From the NCBI GenBank assembly GCA_964016885.1, contig CAXHJY010001566.1, forward strand, positions 1-15,773: DNA of 15,773 bases, given 5' to 3'. This DNA comes from Eledone cirrhosa (Eukaryota). Shown in pieces: positions 46 to 15,020 of this stretch. The first letter of the stretch is position 1. The number at the start of each line of letters is the position of its first letter. The position numbers and the translations under genes are program-made. The notes beneath the pieces are model-generated. The model did not search any database and had not been told where the DNA came from. It saw nothing but the letters and a program-made list of their open reading frames with translations.

Positions 46-96
46 AGATTCTACAGGACTAGAACTGTTTCATTCTTTAGAAATCATCAGGAATCT
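46..96 (-). ncRNA. Type I hammerhead ribozyme motif (Penelope pLTR/retrozyme type)
   Basis: Minus strand reads AGATTC-CTGATGA-tTTCtaaaGAAt-GAAA-CAGttctagtcCTG-TA-GAATCT. Stem I is a perfect 6 bp (AGATTC/GAATCT), the CUGAUGA and GAAA boxes are canonical, stem II is short, stem III is ACAG/CTGT, and the cleavage triplet is GUA. Confidence 0.8.
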
Positions 97-349
97 GGGT
101 ATCAAAAAATAAGTATCGTATTTATAGGTCTCTTCAGGTGGTAGGAGAGGGTAGGGAGTGGGATGGGAGTAGAACATTGGTTGATAGAAAAGGGAATGTA
201 TATATATATATATTAGAAAGTGAGGTTCTTTTTACAAAATGAAAAATAACCGAGGTGTCCTACACGAGTGAAAGTATAAAGAAAAAAGATGAAATCGAAA
301 ATGCAACTGAAGTCTTATTTTTAAAAAATATATATATATTTATTTGGTT

Positions 350-387
350 CCTTTACCGGTTTCGCAGTTCTTCTGCTTTTCAAAAGG
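350..387 (-). ncRNA. Minimal type I hammerhead ribozyme motif, U3-A8 core variant
   Basis: Minus strand reads CCTT-TTGAAAA-GCAG-aagaa-CTGC-GAAA-CCGG-TA-AAGG. Stem I is CCTT/AAGG, stem II is GCAG/CTGC, stem III is the palindrome ACCGGT, and the triplet is GUA. The core UUGAAAA replaces the C3-G8 pair with U3-A8. Confidence 0.72.
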
Positions 388-839
388 TGAGTTGAGATGG
401 CGGGTCTGTGGTTTTTCTCACATCTGGTTGGTCTCTGAATGTTACTTGTTTTATATGGAAAAAGTGGCTCGAAATTCCAGGTTTTTCGAGAAGTAATTTG
501 ATTGGTTTGTCAATAATTATAATAAATTTCGCGCCAGTTCGCGTTACAATAGTTCTTCAAATAAGAGAGGGGGGGGGGGGGGGGGGTTGTCACAGGTTTT
601 TTTTTTCATATATGAGTGTTTGAATTTCTTTTTACTTGAAAAAAGGAGGCTCACGAAGGCTTTTTTTTGGTTGGTTATAAATGAATATATATATATATAT
701 ATACAAAGATCGGAATTAAGAGTATTCCGCAGTTCGCAGTAATAATAATAGTAATATTAGCTCAAAGAAGAATAGAGAATTTTCTTCTGAGCTCAAATGC
801 AAATATATTACACAAAGAGAAGTGTGTTACACAGTGAGA

Positions 840-912
840 TGCTGACTGAGGAACCCGTGGGCTGTTATACTGCACATGTTGGTGGTAAAACGAAGCGAGA
901 TTCGTATCAGCA
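840..912 (+). ncRNA. Hammerhead ribozyme motif, unit 1 (core G12A, probably inactive)
   Basis: TGCTGA-CTGAGGA-ACC...GGT-AAAA-CGAAgcgagaTTCG-TA-TCAGCA. The stems are intact but the GAAA box reads AAAA. Confidence 0.7.
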
Positions 913-979
913 AACCTATAGTTATAAGGTTGGTAATTTAAAATATATTACACAAAGAGAAGTGTGTTACACAGTGAGA

Positions 980-1052
980 TGCTGACTGAGGAACCTGTGA
1001 GCTGTTATACTGCACATGTCGGTGATGAAACGAAGCGAGATTCGTATCAGCA
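980..1052 (+). ncRNA. Type I hammerhead ribozyme motif, unit 2
   Basis: TGCTGA-CTGAGGA-[34-nt stem II region]-GAAA-CGAAgcgagaTTCG-TA-TCAGCA. Stem I is 6 bp, stem III is ACGAA/TTCGT, the triplet is GUA, and the predicted cut is 3' of 1046. Confidence 0.8.
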
Positions 1053-1119
1053 AACCTATAGTTATAAGGTTGGTAATTTAAAATATATTACACAAAGAGA
1101 AGTGTGTTACACAGTGAGA

Positions 1120-9807: not shown

Positions 9808-9927
9808 TCTGTTGGGTATGACCCAAATTATTACCAGGTTTGATGTGACCTCTGCAAAGTGGCTCACAATTCATTTCTATTTCCCAATCAATATATATCT
9901 CCGACGTAATACTGCCACCCCCACCCC

Positions 9928-11560
9928 ACACACACACACATATATATATATACATACATATACATACATATATATATATAAATATATATATATATATTTA
10001 TATATATACATATATATATATATACATATATACATATATATATATACATATAAATATATATATATATATGCATATAAATATATATATACATATACATATA
10101 TATACATATATATATATACATATATATACATATATATATATACATATATATACATATATATATATACATATATATATATACATACATATGCATATATATA
10201 TATACATACATATGCATATATATATATACATACATATGCATATATACATATACATATATATACATTTATATATATATATAAATTTATATATATATATATA
10301 CATACATATATACATACATTTATATATATATACATACATATATATATACATTTATATATATATATATACATACATATATATATATACATTTATATATATA
10401 TATACATACATTTATATATATATATACATACATATATATATATATATATATACATATATATACATATACATATACATACATTTATATATATATATACATA
10501 CATATATATATACATACATTTATATATATATACACATACATATATATATATACATATATATACATATATATATATACATACATTTATATATATATACATA
10601 TATATATACATACATTTATATACATATATATATACATACATTTATATATATATATACATATATATATATATATACATATATATATACATACATTTATATA
10701 TATATACATATATATATATATACATATATATATATATACATATATATATCCATACATTTATATATATATACATATATATATATATATACACATATATATA
10801 TACATATATATATATATACACATAGACACATATATATATATACATATATATATATACATATATATATACATACATATATATATATATATACATAAATATA
10901 TATACATACATATATATACATACATATATATATATATATATATATACATATATATATATATATATACACATACATATATATATATATATACATATATATA
11001 TACATATATACATACATATATATATACATATATACATACATATATATACATACATATATATATATATACACATATATATATATACATATATACATACATA
11101 TATATATACATATATACATACATATATATACATACATATATATATATATATATATACATATATACATACATATATATACATACATATATATACATATATA
11201 CATACATATATATACATACATATATATATATATATATATATACATATATATATACATATATACATACATATATATATACATATATACATATATACATACA
11301 TATATATATACATATATACATACATATATATATATACATATATACATACATATATATATATACATACATATATATATATATATATATATACATACATATA
11401 TATATACATATATATATACATACATATATATATACATATATATATACATACATATATATATACATATATATATACATATATACATATATATATACATATA
11501 TATATACATATATATATACATACATATATACATACATATATATATACATACATATATACA
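9928..11560. repeat. Compound (TA)n/(TACA)n microsatellite, about 1.6 kb
   Basis: TA runs interrupted by CA, CATTTA and TGCA variants. Confidence 0.97.
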
Positions 11561-12150
11561 TGGTGGCTGCCAACTCGTTTTCGAGTACGGCCACTGCTTT
11601 ATATCCATGTAGGAGAACCCCTACCGATGCGCTGAACGAGTGTGACTTTTTAGTCCAGCCAGCGACTTGAAAACTCTGGTACAAACACTACACTTGTGAC
11701 AATTATTGACACATAGTGCTGGGCCCATGGTACCATGTGACGACAAGTGCAGAGAGATCTCCAGATATAAAGCAATGCCTGTGCCGTGAAGCTTTTATAG
11801 TGAGCAAAGGCACTGCACAAAGCCAGTCCCACTCTCTTAACCAAGATGATATTTACCAAAAAGAAGAACAAGTCAACATCATTGGATACCATCAGGGTTG
11901 CAGGTGTTATATCAGAGTTTTCCTTCTCCTAGAATTCTGCCTTGACAAAGGCTAAGGGGTCATCTCTCCCGGTGATTTTGGATGGCCATTGACTCTTAAG
12001 AGCTCCTTTGCCCTTTGACAGGTTTTGTTTTTAGTCCTGCAGGATGTCCAAAGTCACCCTCCTCACCAAGAAACCTTGGTGGGGTTGCCAGTTTAGTCGC
12101 CAACGACCCGACCATGAGACAGGTTGTACTGGGATACATGTTACCAGGAC
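11561..12150 (-). mobile_element. Probable 5' region of an RTE-type retroelement or RTE-related SINE
   Basis: Higher-GC island between TA tracts. The minus strand contains CTAGGAGAAGGAAAACTCTGA and GTCG..GGCGACTAAA segments that I recall from RTE-related 5' UTRs. This is recognition from memory, with no protein motif to confirm it. Confidence 0.4.
12088..12145 (-). ncRNA. Possible degenerate HDV-like ribozyme
   Basis: Minus-strand order is taacatg (P1?) ... CCAGT (P2) acaaCCtgtct catggtc (P1') GG gTCG-ttgg-CGA (P4) CTAA (J4/2) ACTGG (P2'). P1 and P3 are imperfect. Confidence 0.3.
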
Positions 12151-12760
12151 ATATATACATACATATATATATACATACATATATACATACATATATATAT
12201 ACATATATATATATATATACATATATACATACATACATATATACATACATATATATATACATACATATATATATACATATATATATATATATACATATAT
12301 ATATATACATACATATATATATATATATATACATACATATATATATATATATATATATACATATATATATATATACACATATATATATAATATATACATA
12401 CATATATATATATATATATATTTCGTTTCTGAATGGCAACATGACCCTCCCAAAGTATAACAATATATATATATACATACATATATATATATATATATAC
12501 ATATATATATACACATACATATATATATATATACATACATATATATATATATAAATATAGATACATACATATATACAAATATATATATATATATATATAT
12601 ATATATATATATATATATACATACATATATATATATACATACATATATATGTATATATATATATATATATATACATACATATATATAATATACATACATA
12701 TATATGTATATATATATATATATATATACATACATATATATACATACATATATATACATA
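12150..12760. repeat. Compound (TA)n/(TACA)n microsatellite with a unique island of about 40 bp (12421-12462)
   Basis: Seen directly in the sequence. Confidence 0.95.
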
Positions 12761-12947
12761 AATACTGCTGCATTAGTGCGGCCGAAACACGAGACCGGGA
12801 ACCTTATAGGCACCCCGTTTTACGTGGGTTGTGTTGAGGCAAATAACTACGTGTATACTGTGGTAATGTATCTTACATTGCCAATGGAGTGTGCTGACAT
12901 ACAACCGGTCCTGCATTGATAAATATGCTGGGACCGTCACCTCCTTA

Positions 12948-14850
12948 TTATATATATATACATATATATATATATATATATATATGTATATATATGTATA
13001 TGTATATATATATGTATATATGTATATATATATATGTATGTATATATATATATGTATGTATGTATATATATATATGTATGTATGTATATATATGTATGTA
13101 TGTATATATATATATGTATGTATATATATATATGTATCTATATGTATATACATATACATATATACATATATATATATATACATATATACATATATATATA
13201 CATATACATACATATATATATATACATATACATACATATATATATATACATATACATAAATATATATATATATATACATATATACATACATATATATATA
13301 TACATAAATATATATATATACATAAATATATATATATACATAAATATATATATATACATAAATATATATATATACATAAATATATATATATATACATATA
13401 TACATACATATATATATATATACATATATTCATACATATATATATATACATATATTCATACATATATATATATATACATATATTCATACATATATATATA
13501 TATACATATATACATACATATATATATATATACATATATACATACATATAATATATATATATATACCTATATATATATATATATATATATATATACCTAT
13601 ATATATATATATATATATATATACCTATATATATATATATATATATATACTCTATATATATATATATATATATATATACCTATATATATATATATATATA
13701 TATATATACCTATATATATATATATATATACCTATATATATATATATATATACTATATATATATATATATATACCTATATATATATATATATATATACCT
13801 ATATATATATATATATATATACCTATATATATATATATATATATATATATATATATATATATATATACCTATATATATATATACATATATACTTATATAT
13901 ATATATATATATATATATACCTATATATATATATATATATATATATATACCTATATATATATATACATATATAACTATACATATATAACTATACATATAT
14001 ATATATATACATATATATATATATATATACCTATATATATATATACATATATAACTATACATATATATATATACATATATATATATACATATATACATAT
14101 ATATGTATATACATATATATATATACATATATATATACATACATATATATACATACATTTATATACATACATATATATATGCATACATATATATACATAC
14201 ATTTATATACATACATATATATATACATACATATATATATATATACTCATATATATATACTCATATATATATACTCATATATATATACAATATATATACA
14301 TATACTCATATATATATACATATATATACATACATATATATACATATATATATATATAAATATATACATATACATATACATATATATATATATATAAATA
14401 TATACATATATATATATATAAATATATACATATACATATATATACATATATATATATATAAATATATACATATACATATATATATATATATATATATTCA
14501 TACATATATATATACATATATATATATACATATATATAGATATAGATATATATATATACATATATATAGATATATATATATACATATATATAGATATATA
14601 TATATATATATCCATATATATATATATATATCCACATATATATATACACATATATATATATCCATACATATATATATGTACATATTTTATATATACATAC
14701 ATATATATACATATATATATATCAATACATATATATATATACATATATAATTTGGTAACTTTGATATGTTTCGGCCATTTCTAGCATAATATATATATAC
14801 ACACACATGTATATATATATATATATATATATACATCTACATGCATACAT
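12948..14850. repeat. Compound (TA)n microsatellite, about 1.9 kb, with successive variant sub-units
   Basis: TATG, CATAAA, TTCA, TACC, TAAC, CTCA, TAGA and TCCA interruptions occur in successive blocks, with a short unique island at 14750-14788. Confidence 0.96.
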
Positions 14851-14959
14851 ATATCGGTATACAGATGAGGCTAATGAGCTGATGTATACATTTGAGATTG
14901 TTGAGATCCGTAGCTTAACCTCCGAATCCGTACAAAGTTCTAACTTGCCTCTTAAGAAC

Positions 14960-15020
14960 GTGATGTTTTCTCCCGAATGAAACAGTTCTAGTCCTGTAGA
15001 AGCTATTTCTATATTAAATA
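14960..15020 (+). repeat. Degenerate second copy of the HHR family at 33-96 (opposite orientation)
   Basis: gaatgaaacagttctagtcctgtagaa (14975-15001) is the exact reverse complement of 49-75, and similarity extends to ctatattaaa. The core box has decayed to GTGATGT. Confidence 0.8.

What the first reader, a model, noticed from the sequence alone, without database searches (positions are those of the whole stretch)
46..15004. Hammerhead 'zoo': several sequence-unrelated HHR families concentrated in islands between TA tracts
Seen: HHR motifs or relics at 46-96(-), 350-387(-), 840-1192(+, x3), 2698-2739(-), 8951-9014(+), about 9289-9333(-) and 14960-15004(+). Their stems differ in sequence but share the topology, and each sits in a short non-coding island abutting TA repeats. 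No Penelope RT or GIY-YIG coding sequence is visible. Established: Penelope-like element pLTRs carry minimal type I HHRs and favour AT-rich targets. Inference: this is a diverse population of small non-autonomous ribozyme retroelements that uses (TA)n as a landing pad, and it is probably unannotated in this genome.
Basis: partly seen in the sequence, partly recalled or inferred. Interest (0 to 1): 0.75.

Follow-up and report, generated by a model that had tools for sequence, protein, structure and literature searches.

The report
Penelope ribozyme ends and retrozymes
The self-cutting-RNA motifs here are real: four sites are cut-off ends of protein-coding Penelope-type jumping genes and three are protein-free repeats likely moved by the same enzymes, all landing in TA repeats of a genome that holds roughly a quarter of a million such motifs.

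Summary
All seven sites belong to multi-copy families with a type I hammerhead fold. Five cores in the window are intact; the rest are decayed. Two corrections: 46-96 and 14960-15004 are related, not unrelated, and the 8951 ribozyme ends at 9047, with a 63-nt helix II. 'Non-autonomous' is only partly right. Families A/A2, B and E are 5'-truncated ends of Hydra-clade Penelope-like elements; ORFs were traced for A, B and E. C, D and F are ORF-less head-to-tail units (about 547, 315, 340 bp), i.e. retrozymes, with the same two-ended 3' footprint. TA targeting holds (38 of 48 events versus 12-21% for random positions). The window is ordinary for TA-rich DNA here. Whole-genome pattern counts give about 158,000 short-helix-II and 94,000 long-helix-II cores above control. 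Hammerheads and TA targeting in Hydra elements, including an octopus family, are published. I did not find in print the scale, the long helix II class, or the Penelope footprint on retrozymes. The scan has reported this system before on other DNA of this genome. Cleavage and expression are untested.

The parts
30..197 (-). Family A: 5'-truncated 3' end (pLTR) of a Hydra-clade PLE; hammerhead 46-96, intact core 52-90, GUA site, U.U at the base of helix II; short 3' end abuts the TA tract at 1-30
213..685 (-). Family B: 3' end of a second Hydra-type PLE; hammerhead 350-387 with a family-wide U3-A8 core (UUGAAAA) and palindromic helix III; long 3' end abuts the TA tract at about 190-212
705..1382 (+). 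Family C insertion (ORF-less unit of about 547 bp): inverted tail 705-841, three 140-bp local repeats (801-1223) each with a hammerhead with a 34-nt helix II region (copy 1 decayed, copies 2 and 3 intact), short 3' end at the TA tract near 1380
2561..2932 (-). Family D insertion (ORF-less unit of about 315 bp, more than unit length); hammerhead 2698-2739, decayed here; family core intact in 24 of 29 copies
7846..7958 (+).
   Evidence: the family fold was read by eye from L009 and L037
8925..9100 (+). Family E: 3' end of a third Hydra-type PLE; hammerhead 8952-9047, intact core 8959-9040, 63-nt helix II region, self-complementary helix III, GUA site
9110..9474 (-). Family F insertion (ORF-less unit of about 340 bp) as a hairpin: decayed hammerhead at about 9281-9335(-) plus an inverted 3' arm 9330-9474(+)
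12762..12948 (+).
   Evidence: the family fold was read by eye from L225 and L280
14958..15073 (+). Subfamily A2 (related to A): 5'-truncated at helix I, first core box decayed; 17 of the 25 closest copies share an A9U core

Best explanation
The islands are 3' ends of at least three protein-coding Hydra-clade Penelope-like elements (A/A2, B, E) plus three ORF-less head-to-tail hammerhead repeats (C, D, F) that are likely mobilised in trans by the same kind of enzyme. Shown: family structure, ORF linkage for A, B and E, TA adjacency, two clustered 3' ends per family lying about 20-290 nt downstream of the predicted cut site, and constant tail-to-head junctions in C, D and F. Inferred: the GIY-YIG domain nicks (TA)n and the RT starts at one of two internal sites just 3' of the hammerhead, copies back through it and usually stops early or inverts, so the hammerhead is the part most often deposited. 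Because the copies span the cut site, the template must be uncut or re-ligated RNA. For C, D and F the likely template is a self-cut, circularised monomer read more than once round. Each insertion sits in TA, and the UTRs carry microsatellites, so further elements nest there.
For: ORF after the A tail: RWR, DKT, CxCX5C, GIY-YIG with CxxC and CxH, one frameshift, in two adjacent copies (Pfam GIY-YIG E=0.002, below cut-off). An A-type RT or EN lies upstream of an A hammerhead on the same strand in 7 of 10 extended loci. One EN family does so in 3 of 6 B loci (85-94% DNA identity). For E, 2 of 4 loci have it, and in a third the tail runs straight into an RWR ORF start. Same-strand recurrence of the tail upstream: A 0 of 25, B 0 of 29, E 0 of 28; constant tail-head junction C 6 of 22, D 22 of 29, F 6 of 19; longest ATG ORF 89, 45 and 58 aa. 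Distance to first TA run: A 9 at 45 and 14 at 113-119 of 25; B 13 and 16 of 29; E 16 and 9 of 28; C 10 and 9 of 22; D 21 and 5 of 29. (TA)5 within 200 nt 3' of 38 of 48 events versus 12.2% random and 20.8% locus-matched, p=8e-18. Cores intact among the closest copies: A 25/25, B 24/29, C 20/22, D 24/29, E 25/28. Two internal RT starts are shown in vitro for a Poseidon PLE (PMC11167929).
Against: No cleavage, expression or circular RNA was observed. The enzyme that moves C, D and F was not identified; their monomers show no convincing match to the A, B or E pLTRs, so a partner ORF elsewhere is not excluded. F is weak: core intact in 9 of 19, and only 9 of 19 ends lie within 143-193 nt. PMC11167929 found hammerhead cleavage dispensable for insertion in vitro and no RNA-seq ends at the cut site. 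Many motifs here have GUU sites, U.U or C.A at the base of helix II, or A9U (A2), which may be poor cutters. MFE folds of single A, C, D, E and F copies did not give the full hammerhead. Family loci are the top 29-30 hits by likeness to the window copy, not random copies. The SINE control is also TA-enriched (13 of 34 within 100 nt versus 8.5% random), so part of the association is regional.
Confidence: 0.8

Rival explanations
1. Same elements, but the hammerheads are mostly passengers: insertions are copied from uncut read-through or multimeric transcripts, and no circular RNA is involved.
For: Every copy spans the cut site. In vitro, unprocessed RNA was the dominant template and hammerhead mutants inserted normally (PMC11167929). 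An A9U subfamily has amplified (17 of 25). Tandem arrays exist that could be transcribed as multimers.
Against: Cores and helices are kept across sequence-unrelated families. Helix I changes on both sides between A and A2, and B has the double U3-A8 change. C, D and F monomers fold as circles more stably than shuffles (z -2.9, -4.2, -3.5; 25 shuffles). Circular RNAs are reported for other animal retrozymes (PMC7229834 passages).
Confidence: 0.35
2. One reading: all islands are independent small non-autonomous ribozyme elements.
For: The window copies are non-coding and short; C, D and F are ORF-less units.
Against: A, B and E extend into their own Hydra-type ORFs and never show tail-to-head units.
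Confidence: 0.05
3. C, D and F are moved by another RT, such as the R4/Dong-like or RTE LINEs present in this window, and the TA association is regional.
For: LINE relics lie in the same TA landscape; the SINE control is TA-enriched.
Against: C, D and F share the two clustered 3' ends and the inverted 5' arms seen on the Hydra-type elements, and end without a poly(A)-type tail.
Confidence: 0.1
4. Chance motifs in AT-rich DNA.
For: Short cores do arise by chance: 16,918 control matches genome-wide, and a few sample hits look spurious.
Against: Shuffles give 0.01 against 2 in the window and 0-2 against 80 in the sample; one 27-mer has 27,663 exact copies against 0 control.
Confidence: 0.01

Closest known systems
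Hydra clade of Penelope-like elements, incl. Hydra-1_Obim of Octopus bimaculoides (Craig et al. 2021, PMC8557442; passages, section 11 and supplement rows read)
   Same: RWK-type, DKT and CxCX5C motifs, C-terminal GIY-YIG without CCHH, canonical hammerhead, (TA)n preference, tail, inverted 5' copies. By eye, the A ORF follows the Hydra-1_Obim protein printed in the supplement.
   Different: Several families here rather than one; long microsatellite-containing 3' UTRs; a helix II region of 63 nt in E; tens of thousands of copies. No computed alignment to Hydra-1_Obim was made.
Minimal PLE hammerheads (Cervera and de la Pena 2014, PMC4209133; parts 1-2 of 4 read)
   Same: Type I topology, palindromic helix III suited to dimers, the U3-A8 core variant, many families per genome, mostly truncated single copies.
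   Different: There 4,000 and 9,000 per genome are called remarkable, and helix II is 7-8 bp with a conserved G10.1-C11.1 pair. Here the count is about 2-2.5 x 10^5 and G-C at that position is rare (5 of 79 in the sample).
Metazoan non-LTR retrozymes (Cervera and de la Pena 2020, PMC7229834, passages; Li et al. bioRxiv 10.64898/2026.07.22.740005, parts 1-2 of 5)
   Same: ORF-less units of 300-550 bp in head-to-tail arrangement, one type I hammerhead per unit, proposed PLE origin; a U.U base of helix II is reported in axolotl.
   Different: C, D and F are mostly 1-1.5-unit dispersed copies in (TA)n with the PLE two-end footprint. The axolotl count is 126,247 in about 28 Gb (about 4.5 per Mb), against about 65-85 per Mb here.
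Poseidon PLE of the green anole, in vitro (Frangieh et al. 2024, PMC11167929; parts 1-2 of 4 read)
   Same: Two internal RT start sites downstream of the hammerhead produce the optional tail; AT-rich target.
   Different: Different clade; its starts lie inside the ORF and its tail is 30-40 bp. Here the two ends are about 37-103 nt apart, and in A and E they lie before the ORF.

Membership tests
Type I hammerhead ribozyme | Core CUGANGA / GAAA / UH in type I order with three helices | tested here: met
   5 intact cores in the window; family copies intact in A 25/25, B 24/29, C 20/22, D 24/29, E 25/28, F 9/19, A2 2/25
Type I hammerhead ribozyme | Helices supported by covariation | tested here: inconclusive
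   Two-sided change in helix I between A and A2, U3-A8 in B, an E relative in L139 read by eye; no formal covariation test
Type I hammerhead ribozyme | Site-specific self-cleavage | not testable with these tools
   needs an in vitro assay or RNA ends
Hydra-clade PLE (A; B and E in part) | RWK-type N-terminal motif and DKT | tested here: met
   A: RWR and DKT. E: RWR, with DKM in one decayed copy. B: N-terminus not recovered.
Hydra-clade PLE (A; B and E in part) | C-terminal GIY-YIG without CCHH, CxCX5C linker, CxxC and CxH | tested here: met
   A. The B and E ENs show CxxC and CxH.
Hydra-clade PLE (A; B and E in part) | Hammerhead in the pLTR, (TA)n insertion, optional tail | tested here: met
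Hydra-clade PLE (A; B and E in part) | Placement in an RT tree with reference PLE clades | not tested
Non-LTR retrozyme (C, D, F) | ORF-less head-to-tail unit with one type I hammerhead | tested here: met
   units of about 547, 315 and 340 bp with constant junctions; longest ORFs 89, 45 and 58 aa
Non-LTR retrozyme (C, D, F) | Two or more consecutive units with complete hammerheads | tested here: inconclusive
   same-strand hammerhead pairs in one C locus, one D locus and three F loci (two places); most copies are 1-1.5 units
Non-LTR retrozyme (C, D, F) | Expressed as circular RNA | not testable with these tools
Naiad PLE | N-terminal GIY-YIG, no canonical hammerhead | tested here: not met
   the EN is C-terminal in A and directly precedes the 3' UTR in B and E

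The most novel reading that the evidence does not exclude
This genome carries the densest hammerhead population I could find reported: about 2-2.5 x 10^5 intact cores, one per 12-15 kb. About 94,000 of them form a long-helix-II, palindromic-helix-III class outside the published descriptors I read. Its ORF-less retrozymes carry the two-end footprint of Hydra PLEs, which names the enzyme that copies animal retrozymes and makes the long-proposed circular-RNA route directly testable.
Probability: 0.5. Interest if true: 0.65.

Novelty: new member of a known kind. Interest (0 to 1): 0.42.

Why it matters
The parts are known; the scale and the pairing are what add something. A quarter of a million potential cleavage sites in one animal genome would bear on intron and read-through RNA turnover, and on repeat annotation. 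The 2026 Octopus vulgaris repeat annotation does not mention ribozymes or Hydra elements in its main text and lists 893 unclassified SINE families; some of those may be such ends, which is a guess. Autonomous and ORF-less families with mapped ends in the same genome give a ready system for asking what the PLE hammerhead is for and how retrozymes are copied.

Tried and rejected
Rfam: the displayed rows were TA-driven miRNA matches and were uninformative. The repeat finder was swamped by TA. The first strict descriptor (helix II up to 60 nt, paired base) missed A and E and gave 0 hits at its strictest setting; it was relaxed. 'Candidates of the first look' (83-1,947) badly undercount families and were not used. 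A 799-kb sample is too small for C and F (0 hits each). The sample overestimates the genome by about 1.4-fold for the short pattern (66 per 0.8 Mb against 175,386), so whole-genome counts were preferred. A Naiad assignment for A was rejected (C-terminal EN). PLE ORF hits beside D and F loci (L099, L100, L107, L175) were judged nesting, not linkage, from orientation or position, and were not followed up. The TA-junction classifier was too strict and was replaced by distances. The D and F monomers included inverted pieces and were redone. TA microhomology at the two ends is suggestive but was not tested. Sequencing runs: no RNA holder listed, so no reads were laid. Lunse et al. 2017 on small PLE hammerheads could not be read and may already describe some of these variants. 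bioRxiv supplements were not seen. Dfam and Repbase were not available.
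Full report
Setting. The window is the whole of a 15.8-kb contig in a 3.0-Gb animal assembly. It is 22.7% (TA)n tract against a sample mean of 4.7%. A cephalopod is my inference from the likeness, by eye, of the element A protein to the published Hydra-1_Obim protein.

Observation. Descriptor scans find intact type I cores at 52-90(-), 354-383(-), 986-1046(+), 1126-1186(+) and 8959-9040(+), and one-change relics at 846-906 and 2702-2735. A strict descriptor gives 2 window hits against a mean of 0.01 in 200 dinucleotide shuffles. 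Each site was searched in the genome; 40 candidates were scored per search and 30 loci kept, leaving 19-29 after removing the window and duplicates. Cores with helix I of at least 3 bp are intact in A 25/25, B 24/29, C 20/22, D 24/29, E 25/28 and F 9/19. In A2, 2 of 25 are canonical and 17 of 25 carry A9U. The 9289-9333 relic is a decayed copy of a family with a perfect minimal hammerhead. The 8951 motif has a 63-nt helix II region and closes at 9047. A and A2 are related (87.5% over 104 nt), and D and F share a tail segment (82% over 44 nt). B has the U3-A8 core in 26 of 29 copies, a variant already described in schistosome PLEs (PMC4209133).

Autonomous families. [quoted passage not shown] These are the Hydra-clade marks of PMC8557442 section 11. 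I extended 20 loci chosen for long shared upstream sequence. An A-type RT or EN lies upstream on the same strand in 7 of 10 A loci; the other 3 held only different PLE ORFs. One EN family does so in 3 of 6 B loci and another in 2 of 4 E loci, and in a third E locus the tail runs into an RWR ORF start. A, B and E never show the tail recurring upstream (0 of 25, 0 of 29, 0 of 28). These window islands are therefore 5'-truncated PLE ends.

ORF-less families. C, D and F have a constant tail-to-head junction upstream of the hammerhead (6 of 22, 22 of 29, 6 of 19), units of about 547, 315 and 340 bp, ORFs of at most 89 aa, and circular folds more stable than shuffles. D is 68-71% identical over 218-246 nt to a 310-bp repeat found as long tandem arrays with a different hammerhead. 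The 140-bp triplet in the window is a local repeat across an inversion junction.

TA targeting. In 80 evenly placed 10-kb loci (799 kb) the descriptor finds 80 hammerheads in 49 events at 34 loci, against 0-2 in five shuffles. (TA)5 lies within 200 nt downstream of 38 of 48 scorable events, against 12.2% of random and 20.8% of locus-matched positions (p=8e-18). A SINE control is less enriched but not flat (13 of 34 within 100 nt; random 8.5%). In A, B, C, D and E the 3' ends cluster at two positions about 20-290 nt past the predicted cut; F is looser. This matches the PLE tail and the two internal RT starts shown for anole Poseidon (PMC11167929). Events rise with TA content (Spearman 0.53) to about 1.1 per 10 kb, so 2 strict events in this window is ordinary.

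Scale. One 27-mer of A/A2 has 27,663 exact copies (control 0). The core with a 12-14 nt helix II region occurs 175,386 times against 16,918 for the reversed control. The core with a 27-38 nt region, a 6-nt helix III region and an RUA site occurs 96,285 times against 2,537. That is about 252,000 above control, or 84 per Mb, by sequence alone. In the sample 45 of 66 short-pattern matches passed the structure test, so about 2 x 10^5 is the safer figure. Redundant haplotypes in the assembly were not excluded. Published figures I saw: 4,000-9,000 (PMC4209133) and 126,247 in axolotl (PMC7229834). The Naiad core search of PMC8557442 used a 7-17 nt spacer, which the long class exceeds.

Mechanism. Shown: anatomy, linkage, ends, TA bias. 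Inferred: nicking of (TA)n, internal priming 3' of the hammerhead, early termination or inversion. Since copies span the cut site, the template is uncut or re-ligated RNA. I favour circles for C, D and F, as proposed in PMC4209133 and supported by circular RNAs of other animal retrozymes in PMC7229834. The passenger rival is live, because cleavage was dispensable in vitro in PMC11167929 and an A9U subfamily has spread.

Novelty. Hydra elements with hammerheads in (TA)n are published, including Hydra-1_Obim. Retrozymes as PLE derivatives are argued in bioRxiv 10.64898/2026.07.22.740005. Six literature searches returned no survey of cephalopod hammerheads. The O. vulgaris repeat paper has no 'ribozyme' or 'Hydra' in its main text. 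I did not read the giant squid genome paper listed, and Lunse et al. 2017 was not available. Earlier notes of this scan reach the same reading on other pieces of this genome; I had formed mine before looking, and they are not independent support. Verdict: real, explained by known kinds, with a striking scale and a testable retrozyme-driver link; interest 0.42.

Noticed in passing
window 14915-14956(-): The 3' end of a histone H4 coding sequence (reads LKRQVRTLYGFGG-stop; H4 identity recalled) sits inverted directly at the 5' truncation of the A2 insertion. A related stretch is in L193. Possibly a template switch to a histone RNA or gene.
   Followed up: partly
window 15075-15420(+): Directly after the A2 tail comes the 3' UTR of another Hydra-type PLE; it follows the EN stop in L056 and L089.
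   Followed up: partly
window about 4830-7700(+): Decayed LINE with an RT (Pfam RVT_1 E=4e-10) and a C-terminal restriction-like endonuclease pattern; R4/Dong-like by recall, not tested.
   Followed up: partly
window about 1420-2230(+), 2385-2512(-), 11561-12148: RTE-like LINE 3' relic, a tRNA-like SINE (34 hits in the 799-kb sample) and another repeated island (7 hits); labels recalled.
   Followed up: no
window 12422-12462(+): Terminal 30-40 nt of another TA-anchored family; longer copies (L072) show a minimal hammerhead further upstream, by eye.
   Followed up: partly
L305, L308, L309, L312: Other Hydra-type PLE ORFs (43-52% identical to A) lie between an A hammerhead and its upstream sequence, in two cases between the A ORF and its hammerhead: apparent nesting in the microsatellite of the A 3' UTR.
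   Followed up: partly
L248, L273, L275, L218: Tandem retrozyme arrays with units of about 310, 482 and 467 bp, up to 11 units seen; the 310-bp unit shares its non-ribozyme scaffold with D, and the 482 and 467 units are related to each other.
   Followed up: partly
genome-wide (e.g. L219, L229, L244, L255, L280): A large superfamily of hammerheads with an 8-bp AU-rich helix I, a 27-38 nt variable helix II region, a palindromic helix III and an AUA site; the carrier element was not traced.
   Followed up: partly
L139 about 1140-1230(+): A diverged relative of the E hammerhead with changed but still pairing helices I and III, by eye.
   Followed up: no
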